Virus genome (UHGV): UHGV-0203498
DNA: 32,670 bases
DNA from: a virus
Direction: 5' to 3' (one strand)
The position numbers and the translations under genes were made by a program. Within the stretch, counting starts at the first letter, position 1. Each line of letters starts with the position of its first letter. Below the pieces are notes generated by a model. The model was given only the letters and a program-made list of their open reading frames with translations. It ran no database searches and was not told where the DNA came from. Below are positions 8,645-32,172 of this stretch, piece by piece.

Positions 8645-8674
8645 TTGCAATCTGGGTGTTGGTTGCACTATATT
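8645..8674 (+). promoter_or_regulatory. Putative sigma70-like promoter for the DnaN-like moron (TTGCAA-N18-TATATT), overlapping TTGGTTGCAC motifs
   Basis: TTGCAA at 8645-8650 and TATATT at 8669-8674; TTGGTTGCAC copies at 8659-8668 and 8673-8682; palindrome TTGGT-N5-ACCAA at 8673-8687 just before the RBS. Confidence 0.4.
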
Positions 8675-8703
8675 GGTTGCACACCAACAACGAGGAAATG
8701 AAA

Positions 8704-15496: not shown

Positions 15497-15649
15497 ATTA
15501 ATTTAATTCCTGATTGAGAGGACCGGGGACAATATACCACGGTCGCTATAGTAATTCGCAAATAACCATACCTACGAATGCCGCTGTGGCCCATATTGCC
15601 AATACCCAAATATCATTGCGTGTCATAGTGTGTTACTCCTTCTCGTTGA

Positions 15650-15685
15650 TTGGTTGCAGTATGGTCTCTATGTTGGTTGCAAGTC
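15650..15685 (+). promoter_or_regulatory. ATTGGTTGCA motif pair
   Basis: GATTGGTTGCAG and TGTTGGTTGCAA lie 24 bp apart, immediately beside the 15691-15716 hairpin. Confidence 0.45.
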
Positions 15686-15690
15686 AAGCA

Positions 15691-15716
15691 ATAAAAAGCC
15701 CGGATAATTCCGGGCT
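15691..15716 (-). terminator. Intrinsic terminator downstream of the endolysin-distal small gene
   Basis: Perfect 8-bp stem AGCCCGGA / TCCGGGCT with loop TAAT; on the minus strand it is followed by UUUUAU. Confidence 0.5.
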
Positions 15717-15722
15717 TCATGT

Positions 15723-16633: not shown

Positions 16634-16920
16634 TTTGCGCCCCCCGGAAGGCTGACGGACGCAATTGCCTCCCTGATCCGGGCTGCGATTGGCATCCAAA
16701 AGATCGCGGTTACGAAGCCCAATCCGGCAACAGTGCGCTCACCAGATAAGCCAGCCCACTCGGCAATCGCTGGCGCACCGAAAATGGCGCACAAGAAGCC
16801 GACCACGATATATAACACAAAGTTTAATGGCCCTTTCGTGGCCTCGCCATGAATGCGAGCGCCAACGAAGCCCCCAGCGAGACATGCAAGGGCGAATAAC
16901 CACTCGTTCAGCTTATCCAT
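16630..16920 (-). CDS. Holin-like membrane protein (about three predicted TM segments)
   Basis: 96 aa with hydrophobic segments LFALACLAGGFVGA, FVLYIVVGFLCAIFGAPAI and LGFVTAIFWMPIA; first gene of the holin-endolysin cassette. Confidence 0.55.
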   Translation of the reverse strand: MDKLNEWLFALACLAGGFVGARIHGEATKGPLNFVLYIVVGFLCAIFGAPAIAEWAGLSGERTVAGLGFVTAIFWMPIAARIREAIASVSLPGGAK

Positions 16921-16956
16921 AAAAAAAGTCCCAGTAAGTTTTAACTCACTGGGACT
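16921..16956 (-). terminator. Hairpin plus U7 tract immediately upstream of the holin start codon
   Basis: 8-bp stem GTCCCAGT (16928-16935) / ACTGGGAC (16948-16955) with a 12-nt loop; on the minus strand it is followed by UUUUUUU (16927-16921) and then directly by the ATG at 16920. Confidence 0.45.
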
Positions 16957-16973
16957 ATATCACGCTTGCATAA

Positions 16974-17261
16974 TTAATCGAAAATTGACCACTTACCGAC
17001 GCCTTTCCATTCCCACCCGGATGATCGGATGGCTTCGAATGTTCGACCGCCTATCAAATCCCGATACCACATCCACCACATGCGCAGCCTGGTCGGGTGT
17101 TCCGTGATGCCGCGGCGCTTGTATATCTGGAACGACATGCGGGTAATGCTGGCAGCTTCCACGGCGGGCCATACCAGGCATACCCATATTGCACCCAGCA
17201 CTGCCGCGATGAGGCATAGTCCGCAGGCCAACCCAAACCAATATATCATTTCGTGTAACAT
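16974..17261 (-). CDS. Hypothetical membrane protein
   Basis: N-terminal hydrophobic stretch IYWFGLACGLCLIAAVLGAIWVCLVWPAV; lies in the lysis-proximal small-gene cluster. Confidence 0.4.
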   Translation of the reverse strand: MLHEMIYWFGLACGLCLIAAVLGAIWVCLVWPAVEAASITRMSFQIYKRRGITEHPTRLRMWWMWYRDLIGGRTFEAIRSSGWEWKGVGKWSIFD

Positions 17262-17394
17262 CGTATTGCCCCTTCTGGTTGTCCGATGTGGCGCGCCAAG
17301 GCACGCGCCACGAAGTAATTGCGGAACACTCGCCCGCCTATCTCAAAGCGGTTATGCACGAGCATATCACGGATGGTTGCGCTCATAGCACACC

Positions 17395-17796
17395 CTACCC
17401 CATACGGCAGAAGGCTTGCCAACTAAGGTCGCGGACAGCTTCGGCGTTAGTGCGGGCACGCAGGCAGTATTTGCGGCCCACTCGCTCATAGTTAACCAGC
17501 CCGAAGTACGTCATGCCTCTCTGTATGTTGCCCGCCACGCCGCCAACGCGGGTCTGCATACGAAGGCGATAAAAACCAACGTACTCCACGATCCATAGCT
17601 GCCCGTCGCGAATATCACGCAGCACATCGCCGCGCTCAATATCGTGGGTGAGTACGTCGTATTTCTCCGGCAGATTTGCCTTATCCGCCCACATGACGCG
17701 GTTGCTTGCTTCGTGCAGGAGGCGCACCCAGTTTTCTGTGGTCCGGATCGGCTTCAGTATGCGCCCGTCCGATTTACGGCGGAATAGTAATTTCAT
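17395..17796 (-). CDS. Hypothetical protein
   Basis: 133-aa ORF in a same-strand gene string; its ATG overlaps the upstream small-ORF stop (ATGA). Confidence 0.45.
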   Translation of the reverse strand: MKLLFRRKSDGRILKPIRTTENWVRLLHEASNRVMWADKANLPEKYDVLTHDIERGDVLRDIRDGQLWIVEYVGFYRLRMQTRVGGVAGNIQRGMTYFGLVNYERVGRKYCLRARTNAEAVRDLSWQAFCRMG

Positions 17797-17936
17797 TGCT
17801 CTGTCTCCTCAATCTCATCGGCAGTTTTAGTGTCGCCATCGCACACAGTAGCGATACCGTCCATCTCATAATCTGCTATGCAGGCATCAACAGAAATAAA
17901 CTTCTGCGAGAATCCCGCCATTAGTGCTGGTGTCAT
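17793..17936 (-). CDS. Small hypothetical protein (47 aa), translationally coupled on both sides
   Basis: ATG at 17936 overlaps the stop of the upstream gene and its own TGA overlaps the ATG of the downstream gene. Sequence MTPALMAGFSQKFISVDACIADYEMDGIATVCDGDTKTADEIEETEQ. Below the ORF-track size cutoff. Confidence 0.3.
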   Translation of the reverse strand: MTPALMAGFSQKFISVDACIADYEMDGIATVCDGDTKTADEIEETEQ

Positions 17937-18202
17937 TTGCTCAGTCTCCAGTGTTTGCCTACCCGCTCGACTGCGGGCTTTCGGCGTAATGTAATACGGA
18001 TCCCCATTGGTTGCAAGGAAGTCCGCACCCTGAAATCGTGCTTTGCTGCGAACTGGTGCAAGTAGCGAGTCTGCGTAAGCGGCTTCACATCATCGCGATA
18101 GCTCCAGTACACAGAATCGCCCTCAGTCGCATTCTTAGCCCATATTCGTATGCAGTGTAGGGGAATGCGCCATGAAAGCTGTTTAGCGCGCCTACGGCTC
18201 AT
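17933..18202 (-). CDS. Hypothetical protein
   Basis: 89-aa basic protein; ATG at 18202 preceded by AAGGGG at 6-nt spacing. Confidence 0.4.
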   Translation of the reverse strand: MSRRRAKQLSWRIPLHCIRIWAKNATEGDSVYWSYRDDVKPLTQTRYLHQFAAKHDFRVRTSLQPMGIRITLRRKPAVERVGKHWRLSK

Positions 18203-18211
18203 TCTAGCCCC

Positions 18212-18517
18212 TTATTTCGCAAGCTGAGCGAATAGTTCGCGCTGTGCTTTAATCCGGGCGACGTTTGTCACCGCCTTATCGCCAATACCGAAGCGATATG
18301 CCAGGCGCTCACGGGAGAATGCCTTCGCGTAGCCCTGGATGGCGTTCAGCAGCGAGGCCAGTTTGGCAATCGTGACACCCCTGGCAACGAGTGCACGACG
18401 GAGTGATAGGCGCGTCAGTATCACGGACCGGCACGCATCGTCTTCGTTGCCGTTCAGTGCTCTGGCCTCGTCCAGCTTCGCCACGGCCAGGGTGTAATTC
18501 CAGATTAGTGCTCGCAT
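18212..18517 (-). CDS. Hypothetical protein
   Basis: 101-aa ORF in the same-strand operon. Confidence 0.45.
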   Translation of the reverse strand: MRALIWNYTLAVAKLDEARALNGNEDDACRSVILTRLSLRRALVARGVTIAKLASLLNAIQGYAKAFSRERLAYRFGIGDKAVTNVARIKAQRELFAQLAK

Positions 18518-18711
18518 CGTTCGGTCCTCTTCGTGATGGTTACGCTGTCCAGGAACTGGAAAAGCGCCTCTTGTGCCTTGACGCGCATTGCTTCGTATCG
18601 GCGCTCTTTCTTAAAGTTGCCGAGTAGGTGTGCGGCTCGCGCTTGCAGGTCAGCATTGTTCTCCGCCTCAATCAGTTCTAACAGTTCGTCGACCAGGTCT
18701 TCGTGTTCCAT
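18505..18711 (-). CDS. Hypothetical acidic protein; first gene of the operon
   Basis: ATG at 18711 preceded by AGGAGGA and by the TTGGT-N5-ACCAA palindrome. The upstream region carries a TTGCAG-N16-TTATAT promoter-like arrangement overlapping two ATTGGTTGCA motifs. Confidence 0.45.
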   Translation of the reverse strand: MEHEDLVDELLELIEAENNADLQARAAHLLGNFKKERRYEAMRVKAQEALFQFLDSVTITKRTERCEH

Positions 18712-18732: not shown

Positions 18733-18776
18733 TGCAACCAATATAACAGGGTGCCAGGGTGACTGCAACCAATATT
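18733..18776 (-). promoter_or_regulatory. ATTGGTTGCA motif pair with overlapping promoter-like hexamers upstream of gene 18711
   Basis: On the minus strand: ATATTGGTTGCAGTCACCCTGGCACCCTGTTATATTGGTTGCACACCAACAGGAGG. Confidence 0.45.
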
Positions 18777-18921
18777 AATCACGCGCATGAAAAAGTTGAT
18801 CGCTATCTGCTGAAACTGCAAACTGCATTTTTCACTCTCCATTCTGCAACTCGCATTGGTTGCCGAGTTCATCGACGACCGCAATTTGCATCATGTTGCC
18901 GTGCGTTATGCAATCCCGGAT

Positions 18922-19083
18922 TTTATGCAGTCTCAGACGAGGGGGGTGCCAGACCCCCCGTCTAGTCTGAAAGACTGGGGTGCTGTCCCGCTGTCCCGCT
19001 CCTCTGGAAGCCGCGTCATCCGTGGGCGGGACGGGGTGCTGTCCCGCTTTGTCCCGCCCCTGGTCTGTCCCGCTTTTTGTCCC
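18922..19083. repeat. Copy B of the ~163-bp structured repeat element
   Basis: 18923-18999 is identical to 2128-2203 and 19027-19083 is identical to 2233-2289, in the same orientation, 16.8 kb from copy A. Confidence 0.85.
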
Positions 19084-19132
19084 GCTTACTTTATGCAATA
19101 AAAATGCATAATTATTCACTATATTCACACTA

Positions 19133-19216
19133 CACGGCAACCAATACGACCAGCTAAAAACACGCAATCTGGCAACCAATGCGCGCAGAAATTAACCAAC
19201 ATGGCAACCAATGCGC
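19133..19216 (-). promoter_or_regulatory. Three ATTGGTTGCC motif copies, including an exact 17-bp direct repeat
   Basis: Plus-strand GGCAACCAATGCGCGCA occurs at 19172-19188 and 19200-19216; a third GGCAACCAAT is at 19133-19142. Located downstream of the primase gene stop. Confidence 0.5.
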
Positions 19217-19223
19217 GCAAATT

Positions 19224-21488
19224 TTAATCTTTCAAGTCATCGTCTGTCGCCGAAAGCGTGATTGGGATATCCGATTTGATAACCAAATTAGACGACCCAT
19301 ATATGGCCCCGGTGTGTGGATCTGTGTAAAAACCGAGCACGCCGCGCTCGACCATATCGTCAATTGCCTTCGTCGATGTGCCACCTTTCGCGAGTCCCGC
19401 CTGGCGGACAATTGCCGATTTACTGAATCCAGTATGATCCGGGTTATCTTCCATCAGTTTTTCCAGTGCCGCATAAAGCACTTTTTCTTTTTCTGTGCGC
19501 GGTCCGGCGGTGTTCTCTTCCTTAACTGCGGCTTTGCCCGCGGCCTTCGCCTGTTCGATAGCGAACGGTGCCAGGGCAACCGGTACGAGGTAGAGAGTCT
19601 CGTCGCGTGGCGTGGAGGCGATAGGCTTGACGTCCCAACCGGCAACCACATCGCCGAAGTCAGGCCCAGCGCTGGTGGACTGGTGGGCTTCGAACGCCTC
19701 GGACTTGCGGAGATCCACCTTCACCTTGCACTTGAGCAGGACGAAGCCGCGCGGCGCTTGCTTGATGCCGTTACGAGACTTCTCGTGGTACAGGTTGAGT
19801 TGGCCTGGCTGGTTGTCGTCTGGCTGTTCCAGGAAGAACGCAGAATCGACAGCACCATGAAGCGCGCCGGATCCGCGTGGCGTTCTGCTGCCGTTTGCAC
19901 CTTTAGCCGGGTGGTGGATGACGCCCGCGCTGCCGCCTGTATTTTCCGCAATGGCCTTCAGCGCCTTGACTACCTCGCCCATATCGCTGGCGTTGTTCTC
20001 GTCGAATGGCTTGGCATCGGCGGACCGCAGCGCGACAGTCTGGTTGAGTGAGTCGAATGCCACCAGGCCAACCGGTTCGCCATTCGCGGTGCGATTGATA
20101 AAGCTGATAACTTCGCGCAGGCCAGACTTGCTGGTGATATCCCAGCCGCGTGACTGCAGGTCTATAATGTGCAACTTGTCCAGGTCGTGCTCGTATTTGA
20201 TCTGCAATGCTTCCTTACGCTGGCTGGAGGCTTCGCCGCCTTCCGCATCGAAATAGAAGCAATGGGACTGGACGACCTTCGCACCGCCAAACGGGATACC
20301 AGCGGCAACCGCGCCCATCTGACCCAGCACGTAGAACGACTTACCGATGTTCGACTCACCGGCGAGATACCAGGTCGATTTGAAGTTAACCAGGCCTTCG
20401 ATGATCGGGTCGTGTTTACTGAACAGGGCGACCGGCTCGTTGTCCAGGTCTGCATCTGTGCATTCGCCGAACTCGTCGCCGTCACCGACCGCGTCCACGA
20501 TATGCTCGTAGCATGATTCCACTTCCTCGTCGTCCAGCCCCGGAAGGATGGCGGCGATCTGCTTACGTGACATGTTGTGCGGTTCGACGTTCAGGTGGTC
20601 CGGGATACCGATCAGACGCAGCGCCAGGTGCTGGTGTTTATTCAGTTCTGAGCAACACTCGTTACCGGTGTGCATACACTTGAAACGGATCTCGCCATCC
20701 TTAACCAGGATTGCCGTTGACCCTTCGCCACTGTGCAGGTGTTCGTTAGGACACGGCACTTCATAGCCGCGACCGGATGACAGGGGTTCAAAGCCCGCCT
20801 GGAAGCACCAGTCCAGGATGCCGTCTGCCACACCGCCGTCGCCCTGGGTCAGTTCGTGGCGTACTTCCTCTTTCTCAACTCCCAGCTTGTCAGCCAGGCG
20901 GAGCAGACGACGGACGCGGGCACGCTTGCCGTAGTGGCACTTAACGACAGCCTGCTGGTGCGGCAGGTACATAAGGCGGTTTGTGTCTTTCGTGCAATCG
21001 TCGAAAGCCACATCAGACAGGCCCAGTTGGTCTAACAACGCATACTGGACGCGGCCCAGGTCTTCCGCCGGTACAGGCTTGTCAGTGAGCACCAGGAAAC
21101 GAGCGCAACGCGTGCCACCTTTCAGCGGGTGTCGGTCGCCGGTAGTGGTGTGGAAGACGTGCTCCAGTCCCGCGTCGATGAACGCCTTACGGCAGCGGCG
21201 TAAGGTGCTGGTGTCGGTGCGGTCAATATCGAAGAACAGGATCGAGCGGTCCACCGCACTGGTCTTACGACGCAATCCGTCACGGGTATACGCCACTATG
21301 CCATCAGCCTTACGCTTGCGGCGCGCATACTCGGCTTTATCTTCCGTCTTGTTGATATGCACCGACGATATTTCTTTCGCATCTTTGATAAATTCGAAAA
21401 ATTCATCAGTGGTCATCTGGAAGTTTTCCGCCCTGGCTTTTTCGCCTTTTTTAGCGGGTTTTGTTACAGCGAATTTAATTAAGCTCAT
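19224..21488 (-). CDS. DNA primase / helicase (primase-polymerase-like N-terminal domain, zinc-binding middle region, P-loop ATPase C-terminal domain)
   Basis: N-terminal ILFFDIDRTD (hhhhDhD primase-polymerase-like motif); Cys/His cluster CPNEHLH...CMHTGNECC; Walker A AGESNIGKS and Walker B-like GLVAFDSLN. Confidence 0.8.
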   Translation of the reverse strand: MSLIKFAVTKPAKKGEKARAENFQMTTDEFFEFIKDAKEISSVHINKTEDKAEYARRKRKADGIVAYTRDGLRRKTSAVDRSILFFDIDRTDTSTLRRCRKAFIDAGLEHVFHTTTGDRHPLKGGTRCARFLVLTDKPVPAEDLGRVQYALLDQLGLSDVAFDDCTKDTNRLMYLPHQQAVVKCHYGKRARVRRLLRLADKLGVEKEEVRHELTQGDGGVADGILDWCFQAGFEPLSSGRGYEVPCPNEHLHSGEGSTAILVKDGEIRFKCMHTGNECCSELNKHQHLALRLIGIPDHLNVEPHNMSRKQIAAILPGLDDEEVESCYEHIVDAVGDGDEFGECTDADLDNEPVALFSKHDPIIEGLVNFKSTWYLAGESNIGKSFYVLGQMGAVAAGIPFGGAKVVQSHCFYFDAEGGEASSQRKEALQIKYEHDLDKLHIIDLQSRGWDITSKSGLREVISFINRTANGEPVGLVAFDSLNQTVALRSADAKPFDENNASDMGEVVKALKAIAENTGGSAGVIHHPAKGANGSRTPRGSGALHGAVDSAFFLEQPDDNQPGQLNLYHEKSRNGIKQAPRGFVLLKCKVKVDLRKSEAFEAHQSTSAGPDFGDVVAGWDVKPIASTPRDETLYLVPVALAPFAIEQAKAAGKAAVKEENTAGPRTEKEKVLYAALEKLMEDNPDHTGFSKSAIVRQAGLAKGGTSTKAIDDMVERGVLGFYTDPHTGAIYGSSNLVIKSDIPITLSATDDDLKD

Positions 21489-21979: not shown

Positions 21980-22033
21980 GCGCTTTTTTTTTGAAATTAG
22001 TTGTTGACACCCCACATGCAACCAATCTAATAT
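21980..22033 (+). promoter_or_regulatory. Putative strong sigma70 promoter with upstream T-tract (UP-like element) for the plus-strand early operon
   Basis: TTGACA at 22004-22009, 18-nt spacer, TAATAT at 22028-22033; T9 tract at 21984-21992; the spacer contains GCAACCAAT. Confidence 0.5.
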
Positions 22034-28649: not shown

Positions 28650-28924
28650 CCCCAGAAGGCAAGATTCAAAGCTACCTGATGCGTCGGGTGAAAGCGGTGG
28701 GTGGATTCTGCCGCAAAGTGGCCTGGGAGGGGCGCGCAGGTGCGCCCGACCTGATTATCATCATCAACGGCATCATTGTATTCGTCGAAGTGAAGCGCCC
28801 AGGGGGAAAACCGAAGCCGCACCAGGTGCGAGAGCATGCGCGGATGGCCCGCCGCGGTGCTGACGTTCGCGTCATTGACAACATAGCCGACTGTGATTTA
28901 TTGGTTGCTGAATTGGTCGCATAG
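28646..28924 (+). CDS. VRR-NUC domain nuclease
   Basis: GAPDLIII...VFVEVKRPGGKPKPHQ matches the PD-(D/E)xK core of VRR-NUC domains; start coupled to the upstream stop (ATGA). Confidence 0.8.
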   Translation: MTPEGKIQSYLMRRVKAVGGFCRKVAWEGRAGAPDLIIIINGIIVFVEVKRPGGKPKPHQVREHARMARRGADVRVIDNIADCDLLVAELVA

Positions 28925-31627: not shown

Positions 31628-31661
31628 ATTGGTTGCATAATCATATTGGTTGCATTATATT
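31628..31661 (+). promoter_or_regulatory. ATTGGTTGCAT motif pair forming a sigma70-like promoter (TTGCAT-N17-TATATT)
   Basis: Motifs at 31628-31638 and 31645-31655; -35 at 31633-31638 and -10 at 31656-31661. Confidence 0.45.
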
Positions 31662-31707: not shown

Positions 31708-32172
31708 ATGAAAATTTTACAAGAAGAGAAAAACTACTGGGCAGCACAATGCCTGGAAGCCCGTGAGCAAGCCGAACGCGCGAATGCGCTGGCGGACACC
31801 TACCTTGCGAGCTACGAAGGCGAGGAGAAGGTGCGCAAGGAGCTAGAGGAACGCTTCGATCTGCTATTCGAATTGATGGGTATTATGCAGCGCACCGGGT
31901 ACACGACCACCGTTGCGCTAAACCGCATCACTGCAGAAGGCCTGCGCGAACACTGCAAGCGGGCCGAGGAGTACGTGCGTCCGAAAGGTCGCCAGTCTTC
32001 GGTCCCCCGGAAAGATCTGGTGCTGATAGCGTGGCGGCATACATCAAACGGTGGTTATAGTACTGATATGCGCCCATTGAGCGCCGAGGAGTCAAAGCGC
32101 GTCCAGCGCGTCATGAAAACCGGCAATAAAGTCCCTTTATACGCGATAGATCCAGGTCATGCAGAAGAGTGA
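31708..32172 (+). CDS. Hypothetical protein
   Basis: ATG at 31708 preceded by GGAG at 8-nt spacing; 154 aa, helical and charged. The ORF-track start at 31633 lies inside the promoter/terminator region and is unlikely. Confidence 0.5.
   Translation: MKILQEEKNYWAAQCLEAREQAERANALADTYLASYEGEEKVRKELEERFDLLFELMGIMQRTGYTTTVALNRITAEGLREHCKRAEEYVRPKGRQSSVPRKDLVLIAWRHTSNGGYSTDMRPLSAEESKRVQRVMKTGNKVPLYAIDPGHAEE

What the first reader, a model, noticed from the sequence alone, without database searches (positions are those of the whole stretch)
17250..18711. String of small overlapping, translationally coupled genes between the regulatory hub and the lysis cassette, including ORFs below the size cutoff
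Genes 18711-18505, 18517-18212, 18202-17933, 17936-17793, 17796-17395, a possible 45-aa ORF at 17386-17250 and the membrane protein 17261-16974 are linked by ATGA or near-overlapping start/stop junctions. Such cassettes of small proteins with no recognisable domains are where phages commonly carry host-takeover and anti-defence functions.
Basis: inference. Interest (0 to 1): 0.45.

Follow-up and report, generated by a model that had tools for sequence, protein, structure and literature searches.

The report
Conserved small-gene operon of a Dhillonvirus phage
The seven small, tightly packed genes are real and form one conserved operon found in about 150 related E. coli phages, but nothing yet shows what they do, so the finding is ordinary and the anti-defence idea is untested.

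Summary
The window is a Dhillonvirus-type (HK578-like) E. coli siphophage. The one correction is that the "45-aa" ORF is 46 aa, at 17386-17246. They match HK578 gp48-gp54.

All seven are real genes. dN/dS against 10 relatives is 0.05-0.57, and about 0.05-0.1 for the 46- and 47-aa ORFs. Each start codon has a Shine-Dalgarno site, and six fall in existing PHROG families of unknown function. Junctions are ATGA, 13- or 16-nt overlaps, or 8-9-nt gaps, but such packing is common throughout these genomes.

The block looks like one transcription unit. It starts at a conserved promoter-like module (TTGCAG-17-TATATT, built from two ATTGGTTGCA boxes) and ends at a strong terminator just before the holin gene.

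C89, F46 and G95 are genus-core genes; D47 is in about two thirds of records. The first slot (A68), the middle of B101 and the C-domain of E are variable.

No Pfam, NCBIfam, PADLOC or PDB match was found. B101 models as a four-helix bundle without informative neighbours. E133 models as tandem SH3/Tudor-like barrels.

The genus's known anti-defence gene (anti-Tmn) and immune trigger (Ksap1) map elsewhere. The closest analogue is the lambda nin region. Function is still unknown, and an anti-defence role is plausible but unsupported.

The parts
18734..18773 (-). Promoter-like module made of two ATTGGTTGCA boxes (18773-18764 and 18742-18733). They give TTGCAG (18768-18763), a 17-nt spacer and TATATT (18745-18740), about 29 nt upstream of the A68 start codon.
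   Evidence: The box is enriched: 12 matches against 0.55 expected. Both boxes are conserved in all 10 relatives while the spacer between them varies, and this holds whichever gene comes first. The same paired boxes precede other non-structural operons in SM_S22. The simple consensus scan missed it. Promoter activity is inferred, not shown.
18505..18711 (-). A68: acidic 68-aa helical-looking protein (pI 5.1) in the variable first slot of the operon.
   Evidence: It has the strongest Shine-Dalgarno site (AGGAGG, -10.3 kcal/mol). Homologs occur in only 3 phages: CS16, mckay and Maverick. dN/dS is 0.19 against CS16. No PHROG or Pfam hit. Other relatives carry an unrelated 59-aa gene, a 58-aa extension fused to B, or nothing in this slot.
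18212..18517 (-). B101: basic 101-aa protein (pI 10.7), predicted four-helix bundle. The N- and C-termini are conserved and the middle (about residues 25-65) is variable.
   Evidence: phrog_9839, E = 1e-42. 110 clusters, all on Dhillonvirus-type contigs. AlphaFold2 pLDDT 96.3. dN/dS is 0.12 in the C-terminal part and 0.45 in the middle, never above 1. No fold neighbours outside its own family.
17933..18202 (-). C89: very basic 89-aa protein (pI 11.5, net charge +15), a genus-core gene.
   Evidence: phrog_12533, E = 4e-57. Present in 157 of 158 Dhillonvirus records at 75-99% identity. dN/dS 0.08-0.26. A remote homolog, P0275, lies directly upstream of the holin gene in a Jersey-like phage contig.
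17793..17936 (-). D47: acidic 47-aa protein (pI 4.1, net charge -9), joined to both neighbours by ATGA overlaps.
   Evidence: phrog_15977, E = 7e-34. dN/dS 0.05-0.16, and differences are mostly at third codon positions. Found in 107 phage records. Truncated or disrupted in HK578 and CS16.
17395..17796 (-). E133: the N-terminal domain only of a protein that has two domains in most relatives. The model shows tandem SH3/Tudor-like beta-barrels.
17246..17386 (-). F46: basic 46-aa protein (pI 10.8), a genus-core gene.
   Evidence: phrog_13628, E = 3e-34. Present in 152 records at 80-95% identity. dN/dS 0.056-0.099, close to that of the holins and endolysin. Shine-Dalgarno energy -8.2 kcal/mol.
16974..17261 (-). 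G95: 95-aa protein with a single-pass N-terminal membrane anchor (about residues 12-30) and a nearly invariant Trp/Arg-rich C-terminal domain. It is the last gene of the operon.
   Evidence: phrog_2531, E = 1.5e-35. The membrane segment varies while residues 31-95 are almost invariant. Hydropathy peak 2.62. The family also occurs in about 300 Salmonella Jersey-like phages and in Klebsiella, Erwinia and other phages. In the one Jerseyvirus record examined it sits in a small-gene string between the lysis genes and the terminase.
16920..16973 (-). Invariant 53-nt spacer ending at the holin start codon. It holds a 13-bp hairpin (16956-16927) followed by U7, which reads as an intrinsic terminator closing the operon. 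An extended -10-like TGATATAGT (16962-16954) overlaps the 5' arm of the hairpin.
   Evidence: Terminator scan. Folding energy -24.5 kcal/mol, z = -7.4. Nearly invariant in 11 relatives, whereas the flanking genes differ by about 18%. Annotated as a terminator in PTXU06 and CS16. Promoter function of TGATATAGT is inference only; one chance match is expected in about half of such windows.

Best explanation
This is the window phage's copy of the conserved Dhillonvirus small-gene operon, equivalent to HK578 gp48-gp54.

**Shown.** Seven genuine protein-coding genes lie head to tail on the minus strand, between the primase-helicase gene and its adjacent regulatory hub on one side and the lysis cassette on the other. 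Each has its own Shine-Dalgarno site. They are joined by 4-, 13- or 16-nt overlaps or by 8-9-nt gaps.

**Inferred.**
- They are transcribed as one mRNA. Transcription starts at a conserved sigma-70-like promoter module (two ATTGGTTGCA boxes giving TTGCAG-17-TATATT) just upstream of A68. It ends at a strong intrinsic terminator just upstream of the holin start codon. The close junctions let ribosomes pass from one gene to the next.
- The promoter is of the same type that precedes the replication and DNA-modification genes, so the block probably belongs to the early or middle, non-structural programme.
- The products are small non-enzymatic binders. Four are strongly basic (B, C, E, F; pI 10-11.5) and are likely to bind nucleic acid or protein. 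Two are acidic (A, D). One is a membrane-anchored cytoplasmic domain (G).

**Most likely role.** The block is the functional analogue of the lambda nin region: a chain of small accessory factors that tune phage DNA transactions, gene expression or host physiology. It has a genus-core part (C, F, G, mostly D) and exchangeable parts (the A slot, the middle of B, the C-domain of E). It is not a dedicated anti-defence island. The individual biochemical functions remain unknown.
For: **Identity and synteny.**
- 158 phage records match at 80-95% nucleotide identity, nearly all Dhillonvirus.
- Gene order equals HK578 gp48-gp54 and the equivalent genes of KarlBarth, bob and SM_S22.

**Coding.**
- dN/dS values are A 0.19, B 0.13-0.52, C 0.08-0.26, D 0.05-0.16, E 0.23-0.57, F 0.06-0.10 and G 0.10-0.28.
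- For comparison, the holins and endolysin give 0.03-0.20.
- All seven starts have Shine-Dalgarno sites, and six of seven have PHROG hits.

**Transcription unit.**
- The box pair and hexamers are conserved while the spacer varies, in all 10 relatives and whichever gene comes first.
- The box is 20-fold enriched and oriented with transcription upstream of other non-structural operons.
- No promoter-like or terminator-like site lies inside the block on its own strand.
- The terminator is strong and the spacer is invariant.

**Core versus variable parts.**

**Protein properties.** for charge and hydropathy. Structures: B is a four-helix bundle and E is tandem SH3/Tudor-like barrels.

**nin analogy.**
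- The lambda nin genes lie between the replication genes and the late regulator Q, are dispensable, and were described as a chain of interlinked genes (PMC10695390 and its reference to Kroger & Hobom 1982).
- Jersey-like phages that share the G95 family carry it in a small-gene string that includes NinH-family and DUF2737 genes.
Against: - No transcript, protein or phenotype data exist for any of these genes. The only Dhillonvirus proteomics study found detected just four phage proteins in infected cells and none from this block, so it is uninformative (PMC10673088).
- The promoter is inferred from sequence only. Its -35 matches the consensus at 3 of 6 positions, and the boxes could instead be operator or initiator sites, since iteron-like copies lie nearby at 19130-19227.
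- None of the proteins is homologous to a Nin protein, so the nin comparison is architectural only.
- Strong conservation of C, F and G would also fit an essential regulatory role rather than an accessory one.
- Translational coupling is inferred from geometry alone.
Confidence: 0.55

Rival explanations
1. Anti-defence or host-takeover cassette. One or more of the small proteins, most plausibly the variable ones (A68, B101, E, the acidic D47), bind and inhibit a host defence system or a host machine such as RNA polymerase early in infection.
For: - The position is promoter-proximal, under the same paired-box promoter type that precedes the SM_S22 gene taken here to be anti-Tmn (PMC11846954).
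- The first slot is exchanged among phages, and extra cassettes are inserted in some relatives.
- B and E evolve fastest (dN/dS up to 0.5-0.57), and each family is split into many clusters at 90% identity (110 for B, 422 for E).
- D47 has net charge -9 over 47 aa, which would suit a DNA mimic.
- The fold neighbours of E include RNA-polymerase-binding Tudor domains (UvrD/PcrA C-terminal domain, CarD, NusG KOW).
Against: - No hit to PADLOC, Pfam or PDB.
- No positive selection in B101.
- C, F and G are near-universal in the genus and D is in about two thirds of records; all four are strongly constrained, unlike the patchy anti-Tmn gene.
- The known counter-defence gene and immune trigger of the genus map elsewhere (PMC11846954, PMC11564622).
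- Published SECphi18 escape mutants hit the SSB, polymerase, portal and Ksap1 genes, not this block.
Confidence: 0.3
2. Late-gene and lysis control module. The genus-core basic proteins (C89, F46) act on the invariant promoter/terminator element directly downstream to switch on the lysis and structural operon, occupying a Q-like position. The membrane protein G95 modulates lysis timing or excludes superinfecting phages.
For: - All downstream genes (holins, endolysin, terminase, structural genes) are on the same strand. They begin 6 nt after a strong terminator, in a spacer that is invariant across relatives.
- The holin gene has only a weak Shine-Dalgarno site, which lies in the 3' arm of the hairpin.
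- C89 is very basic (pI 11.5) and genus-core.
- A remote C89 homolog sits immediately upstream of the holin gene in an unrelated Jersey-like phage.
- The G95 family is found near the lysis cassette in the one Jerseyvirus record examined and occurs in several hundred other phage records.
- No late regulator has been identified for this genus, as far as I know.
Against: - C89, F46 and G95 have no similarity to Q, Ogr/Delta, Mu C, sigma factors, holins, antiholins or spanins.
- Four genes separate C89 from the spacer.
- The positive-inside rule puts the conserved domain of G95 in the cytoplasm, unlike the periplasmic antiholin RI (inference).
- The TGATATAGT element could make late transcription independent of any factor. 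No repeated late-promoter motif was found.
Confidence: 0.2
3. Some of the small ORFs (D47, F46, A68) are chance open frames, not genes.
For: ORFs of 30-60 aa are abundant by chance in this sequence: 78 ORFs of 30 aa or more in 5 kb. A68 has homologs in only three phages.
Against: - D47 and F46 have dN/dS of about 0.05-0.1, and 60-80% of their differences fall at third codon positions.
- The reading frames are intact in 107 and 152 records respectively.
- They have Shine-Dalgarno sites and junctions that are conserved in relatives.
- A68 has the best Shine-Dalgarno site in the block and dN/dS of 0.19.
Confidence: 0.03
4. E is an HNH homing endonuclease, as its homolog is labelled in GenBank record PQ658967 (phage UDS3lw).
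Against: - No HNH Pfam or NCBIfam hit for E133 or for eight full-length or partial homologs.
- No conserved His/Asn/Cys metal-finger pattern in 60 aligned sequences.
- The model is all-beta SH3-like barrels.
Confidence: 0.02

Closest known systems
HK578 gp48-gp54 and their equivalents in other Dhillonvirus genomes (KarlBarth gp54-gp59, SM_S22 CDS0057-0064)
   Same: - Same position between the primase-helicase gene and the holin genes, same strand and same gene order.
- Same PHROG families (9839, 12533, 15977, 10243, 13628, 2531).
- Same junction types, the same upstream box-pair promoter module and the same terminator.
   Different: - The window has the rare A68 gene in the first slot, shared only with CS16, mckay and Maverick.
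- It has an N-domain-only E (133 aa against 174-217 aa).
- It lacks the extra tiny membrane peptide and the extra 50-aa gene seen in Oekolampad and SM_S22.
[quoted passage not shown]
   Same: - A chain of small genes with interlinked stop and start codons.
- Transcribed in one direction between the replication genes and the late/lysis genes.
- The lambda region is dispensable (PMC10695390, citing Kroger & Hobom 1982). Here, dispensability of some parts is suggested by natural loss of A, D and the E C-domain.
   Different: - No sequence homology to any Nin protein.
- The phage is virulent, not lambdoid.
- No Q gene is recognisable.
- Several members here are genus-core and strongly constrained, so dispensability of the whole block is not implied.
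Small-gene string of Jersey-like Salmonella phages (Guernseyvirinae), between the lysis cassette and the terminase
   Same: - It contains a G95-family gene.
- It is a run of overlapping genes of 40-90 aa near the lysis genes.
- A Jersey-like metagenomic contig also has a C89-family gene next to its holin gene.
   Different: - It lies downstream rather than upstream of the lysis genes.
- Its other members (NinH family, DUF2737, DUF7740) are unrelated to the proteins here.
- G95 identity is only 32-40%.
Known Dhillonvirus accessory proteins: anti-Tmn (PhiSMS22 ORF35) and Ksap1 (SECphi18)
   Same: - Small proteins restricted to this genus, with no homologs of known function.
- Preceded by the same ATTGGTTGCA box pair in the case of anti-Tmn.
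- They show that such genes in this genus can be counter-defence factors or immune triggers (PMC11846954, PMC11564622).
   Different: - They lie in a different locus, among the methyltransferase, HNH and kinase genes.
- The window's anti-Tmn homolog is at 31708-32169 on the plus strand.
- A tblastn of the SM_S22 locus genes against the window matched anti-Tmn only at 31708-32169 and not in the string. The Ksap1 sequence itself was not compared.

Membership tests
Dhillonvirus gp48-gp54 small-gene block | Synteny: same-strand run between the primase-helicase gene and the two holin genes | tested here: met
   The window order matches HK578, bob, PTXU06, UDS3lw, CS16, KarlBarth, Oekolampad, Lust, JL1 and SM_S22.
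Dhillonvirus gp48-gp54 small-gene block | Orthology of the individual proteins | tested here: met
   B, C, D, E, F and G give full-length tblastn and PHROG matches. A68 matches only CS16, mckay and Maverick. E lacks the C-domain.
Dhillonvirus gp48-gp54 small-gene block | Conserved flanking signals: box-pair promoter module upstream, hairpin plus U-run downstream | tested here: met
   Both are present and conserved. Their activity was not tested.
lambda-type nin region | Chain of small genes with overlapping or abutting stop and start codons, between replication and late/lysis genes | tested here: met
   Junctions are -13, +9, -4, -4, +8 and -16 nt. The position is shown.
lambda-type nin region | Homology to Nin proteins (NinB/Orf, NinG/Rap, NinH, NinI and others) | tested here: not met
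   No Pfam, NCBIfam or PHROG hit to any Nin family.
lambda-type nin region | Dispensable for plaque formation | not testable with these tools
   Indirect evidence only. A68 is absent from most relatives, D47 is absent or truncated in about a third, and the E C-domain is missing in several forms with different C-terminal tails. C, F and G are near-universal.
Known phage anti-defence proteins | Sequence or fold similarity to a characterised inhibitor | tested here: not met
Known phage anti-defence proteins | Patchy distribution or diversifying selection | tested here: inconclusive
   Patchy for A68, for the extra cassettes and for the E C-domain. Not patchy for C, F and G. dN/dS in the variable middle of B101 is 0.45-0.67, never above 1 with this crude pairwise method.
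Known phage anti-defence proteins | Inhibition of a defence system in vivo | not testable with these tools
   Needs deletion and complementation assays.
HNH endonuclease (GenBank label on an E homolog) | HNH / beta-beta-alpha-metal motif | tested here: not met
   No HNH domain in E133 or in 8 homologs. No conserved catalytic His/Asn pattern. The model is all-beta barrels.
Lysis cassette component (holin, antiholin or spanin) for G95 | Membership of a holin, antiholin or spanin family, and co-transcription with the endolysin gene | tested here: not met
   phrog_2531 is 'unknown function', whereas the two downstream genes hit holin PHROGs. G95 is separated from them by a strong terminator. In the one Jerseyvirus record examined it lies elsewhere relative to the lysis genes.

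The most novel reading that the evidence does not exclude
The genus-core members of the block (the very basic C89 and F46, perhaps with membrane-anchored G95) form a previously unrecognised late-gene and lysis switch for Dhillonvirus and Jersey-like siphophages. They would act on the invariant promoter/terminator spacer just upstream of the holin gene. The fast-evolving members (A-slot genes, B101, the two-domain E) would be new counter-defence or trigger-evasion proteins. Either way, this would give the first functions for six PHROG families that currently have none.
Probability: 0.2. Interest if true: 0.55.

Novelty: new member of a known kind. Interest (0 to 1): 0.2.

Why it matters
As it stands, the value is mainly annotation hygiene.
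- The two sub-50-aa ORFs are real genes.
- The block is one conserved operon with definable start and end signals.
- A circulating "HNH endonuclease" label is unsupported.
- The C89 gene is missing from several GenBank records.

Dhillonviruses are widely used in defence-system research (SECphi18, BASEL Bas14-18) and are phage-therapy candidates. This block contains three or four genus-core genes and several exchangeable genes, none with a known function. The core/variable map given here tells experimenters which genes to delete first when looking for a late-gene regulator or lysis modulator (C89, F46, G95). It also tells them which to screen for counter-defence activity (A-slot genes, B101, E, D47).

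Tried and rejected
1. **Family searches.** Pfam, NCBIfam and PADLOC scans of all seven proteins gave nothing above noise. PHROGs gave only "unknown function" families.
2. **PDB sequence searches.** Profile searches of PDB sequences with alignments of B, C, G and E found nothing significant.
3. **B101 as a helix-turn-helix protein.** I guessed a C-terminal helix-turn-helix from the motif RLAYRFGIGETAVTNVARI. The AlphaFold2 model is a four-helix bundle of long helices, and Foldseek against PDB and BFVD found only its own family, so I rejected the guess. The afdb50 library was unavailable.
4. **Positive selection in B101.** Regional and sliding-window tests gave omega below 1 everywhere.
5. **E as HNH.** Rejected.
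6. **Wider homolog searches.**
   - For B, E and G, only Dhillonvirus-type relatives without names were returned.
   - For C89, an exhaustive phmmer search found one credible remote homolog.
   - The profile comparison of C89 with the Jerseyvirus gene upstream of its holin was negative.
7. **Literature.**
   - Anti-Tmn, Ksap1, the RAZR trigger and the Retron-Eco8 and Borvo escape mutations all map outside the block.
   - EE09 proteomics was too shallow to inform.
   - No Dhillonvirus transcriptome was found.
8. **cos site.** The cos sequence reported for EE09 (ATCTTAAGGG) is not in the window, so the position of the block relative to the genome ends could not be used.
9. **Late-promoter motif.** A search for a repeated motif like the spacer's TGATATAGT found none.
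10. **Promoter before the holin gene.** I first thought there was no room for one. I revised this after seeing the extended -10-like element overlapping the hairpin.
11. **Rfam.** Only sub-threshold terminator-like hits.
Full report
**What the window is.** The region matches 158 phage records at 80-95% nucleotide identity. Nearly all are Escherichia or Shigella Dhillonvirus phages, the HK578/SO-1 group of virulent siphophages. Gene order around the finding is the same as in HK578, bob, PTXU06, UDS3lw, CS16, KarlBarth, Oekolampad, Lust, JL1 and SM_S22. The order is primase-helicase (19224-21488, minus strand), a roughly 510-nt non-coding hub, the small-gene string, two holins (16920-16630 and 16633-16388), and endolysin (16401-15910). 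The finding therefore corresponds to HK578 gp48-gp54.

**Observation check.** All seven ORFs are present on the minus strand at the stated coordinates. The one correction is that the "possible 45-aa ORF" is 46 aa, at 17386-17246 including the stop codon.
- Junctions are A/B -13 nt, B/C +9, C/D ATGA, D/E ATGA, E/F +8 and F/G -16.
- Each start codon has a Shine-Dalgarno-like site. Anti-SD duplex energies are -5.8 to -10.3 kcal/mol, stronger than at least 91% of all ATGs in the window.
- Length alone proves nothing, because one search lists 78 ORFs of 30 aa or more in 5 kb.
- Tight packing is not very special either. In the complete relative SM_S22, 25 of 58 other co-directional neighbour pairs overlap, against 6 of 7 in the string (Fisher p = 0.047).

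**Are they genes?** Yes. Codon-aligned comparison with 10 relatives gives dN/dS well below 1, with third-position differences the largest class, for every ORF.

| ORF | dN/dS |
|---|---|
| A68 | 0.19 (one comparison) |
| B101 | 0.13-0.52 |
| C89 | 0.08-0.26 |
| D47 | 0.05-0.16 |
| E133 | 0.23-0.57 |
| F46 | 0.056-0.099 |
| G95 | 0.10-0.28 |
| holins, endolysin | 0.03-0.20 |

The two sub-50-aa ORFs are among the most constrained genes in the neighbourhood. Six of the seven fall in existing PHROG families, all labelled "unknown function". Relatives already annotate them, including the tiny ones: HK578 gp51 and gp53, KarlBarth gp56 and gp58. They are not newly discovered small ORFs.

**Comparative anatomy.**
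- Genus-core genes:
  - C89 is in 157 records at 75-99% identity.
  - F46 is in 152 records.
  - G95 is in essentially all Dhillonvirus records.
  - D47 is in 107 records.
- G95's family extends to about 300 Salmonella Jersey-like phages and to Klebsiella, Erwinia and other phages. In the one Jerseyvirus record examined it sits in a small-gene string between the lysis genes and the terminase.
- The only credible remote homolog of C89 in 1.8 billion representative proteins is P0275. Its gene lies 85 nt upstream of the first holin gene of a Jersey-like metagenomic phage.
- The first slot after the promoter is variable:
  - A68 occurs in the window and in CS16, mckay and Maverick.
  - HK578, JL1 and SM_S22 carry an unrelated 59-aa gene there.
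  - Oekolampad- and jat-type phages have a 58-aa extension fused in frame to B.
  - Other relatives have nothing in this slot.
- Some relatives carry an extra unrelated 50-aa gene between C and D, and a 33-aa membrane peptide between F and G.
- B101 has conserved ends and a variable middle.
- E is a two-domain protein in most relatives:
  - The window keeps only the N-domain.
  - JL1 keeps only the C-domain, and CS16 is split.
  - N-domain-only forms have several different C-terminal tails.
- The GC content of the block equals that of the window (0.553 against 0.545).

**Transcription unit (inferred).** Directly upstream of A68 are two copies of ATTGGTTGCA, at 18773-18764 and 18742-18733. Together they give TTGCAG, a 17-nt spacer and TATATT.
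- The box is about 20-fold enriched in the window, with 12 matches against 0.55 expected.
- It is oriented with transcription upstream of the other non-structural operons.
- The box pair, but not the spacer between the boxes, is conserved in all 10 relatives, whichever gene comes first.
- The consensus scan found no promoter-like or terminator-like site inside the block on its coding strand.
- The block ends at a 13-bp hairpin followed by U7 (16956-16927 plus the tail; -24.5 kcal/mol, z = -7.4).
- The 53-nt spacer containing this hairpin is practically invariant in 11 relatives, although the flanking genes differ by about 18%.
- The holin start codon follows 6 nt after the hairpin stem, at the end of the U-run, and has only a weak Shine-Dalgarno site.
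- An extended -10-like TGATATAGT overlaps the 5' arm of the hairpin. Transcripts starting there would lack the terminator. This is a hypothesis only, since one such match is expected by chance in about half of such windows.

**The proteins.** No Pfam, NCBIfam, PADLOC or PDB-sequence match was found for any of them.
- Four are strongly basic: B pI 10.7, C 11.5, E 10.1 and F 10.8.
- Two are acidic: A pI 5.1, and D pI 4.1 with net charge -9.
- G has one N-terminal membrane segment and a nearly invariant Trp/Arg-rich C-terminal domain. The positive-inside rule places that domain in the cytoplasm.
- B101 models with high confidence (pLDDT 96) as a four-helix bundle. Its only significant fold neighbours are its own family. 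My initial helix-turn-helix guess is not supported.
- The "HNH endonuclease" label on the UDS3lw homolog is unsupported.

**Comparison with what is known in this genus.**
- Anti-Tmn is PhiSMS22 ORF35 (PMC11846954). I identify it with SM_S22 CDS0035 for three reasons: the ordinal number matches, the sequence composition fits the described fold, and phage SM_A8 has only a remnant of it. It lies among the methyltransferase and HNH genes.
- The window has a homolog of it at 31708-32169 on the plus strand, 83% identical.
- Published SECphi18 escape mutations hit the SSB, DNA polymerase and portal genes.
- None of these maps to the block.
- EE09 proteomics detected only four phage proteins in infected cells and none from the block, so it is uninformative.

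**Explanation and rivals.** The best-supported reading is a conserved, single-promoter, terminator-bounded operon of small non-enzymatic proteins belonging to the non-structural programme. Architecturally it is analogous to the lambda nin region, a chain of interlinked, dispensable genes between the replication and late genes (PMC10695390). It has a constrained core and exchangeable modules.
- The gene and operon part of this reading is about 0.9 likely. The "nin-like accessory" part is about 0.5.
It fits the variable slot and the faster-evolving B and E. It has no positive evidence and does not fit C, F and G.
- Rival 2 is that the core basic proteins and G95 control late transcription and lysis through the invariant spacer (about 0.2). 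The evidence for it is position, conservation and the C89-holin adjacency in a distant phage. No homology supports it.
- Chance ORFs and the HNH reading are effectively excluded.

**Verdict.** The block is an ordinary, already annotated, function-unknown part of a well-sampled phage genus. This copy is a new member with lineage-specific details: the rare A68 gene and a truncated E. Interest is low (0.2). The most novel reading not excluded is a new late-gene switch and/or new counter-defence proteins, which I put at about 0.2 probability.

Noticed in passing
window 8658-8680 (+), 15649-15680 (+), 18734-18773 (-), 18855-18863 (+), 19137-19212 (-), 22018-22026 (-), 28900-28920 (+), 31628-31653 (+): A 9-11-nt box, ATTGGTTGC[A/C], is about 20-fold enriched: 12 matches against 0.55 expected. 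It usually occurs in pairs, oriented with transcription, upstream of non-structural operons, and it is conserved in relatives. It could be a phage-specific promoter class or the operator of a phage regulator.
   Followed up: partly
window 19130-19227 and the adjacent AT-rich stretch around 19100-19125: Three iteron-like direct repeats of 31-35 nt, each containing GCGCGCATTGGTTGCC, overlap the 3' end of the primase-helicase gene and lie next to an AT-rich segment. This looks like a replication origin or a regulator-binding array.
   Followed up: no
window 18923-19120 and 2128-2325: A 198-bp piece of the non-coding hub is duplicated at 89% identity inside the tail-gene region. It carries a GC-rich hairpin (GACGAGGGGGG...CCCCCCGTC) and repeated TGTCCCGCTT boxes. 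More GTCCCGC boxes follow up to about 2460. Annotators have called small 'hypothetical proteins' across both copies.
   Followed up: no
window 16920-16973 (-): The 53-nt spacer between G95 and the holin gene is invariant across 11 relatives. A strong terminator (-24.5 kcal/mol) ends 6 nt before the holin ATG, whose weak Shine-Dalgarno site lies in the 3' arm of the hairpin. An extended -10-like TGATATAGT overlaps the 5' arm. This suggests that lysis-gene expression depends either on terminator read-through or on a promoter whose transcripts lack the hairpin.
   Followed up: partly
window 31708-32169 (+): This is a homolog (83% identity, 154 aa) of SM_S22 CDS0035, which I take to be the published anti-Tmn protein of PhiSMS22. 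It is preceded by an ATTGGTTGCA box pair. Full-length copies occur in 155 phage records, and SM_A8 has only a remnant.
   Followed up: partly
window 15649-15718: A plus-strand box pair, antisense to the lysis and late genes, is followed within about 15 nt by a bidirectional hairpin terminator (15695-15718). The arrangement is conserved in relatives. It may be a short antisense transcript or a binding site.
   Followed up: no
window 18006-18014 (+), inside C89: An antisense copy of the ATTGGTTGCA box lies inside C89 and coincides with the invariant LQPMG codons. It is conserved in all relatives examined. It is unclear whether protein or DNA-site constraint drives this.
   Followed up: no
L002 5210-5479, L003 4183-4452, L005 2698-2967 (relatives bob, PTXU06, CS16): The intact C89 ortholog (92-93% identical) is not annotated in these GenBank records. 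The F46 ortholog is also unannotated in CS16.
   Followed up: partly
L004 3484-4056 (UDS3lw, PQ658967): The E homolog is annotated as 'HNH endonuclease'. No HNH domain or motif is detectable, and the modelled N-domain is made of SH3-like barrels.
   Followed up: yes
L007 3209-3688 (Oekolampad); also P0031, P0039 and the jat protein A0A6B9XGI3: In some Dhillonviruses, B101 is fused in frame to a 58-aa N-terminal extension, giving a 158-159-aa protein. The BASEL record annotates only the 101-aa part.
   Followed up: partly
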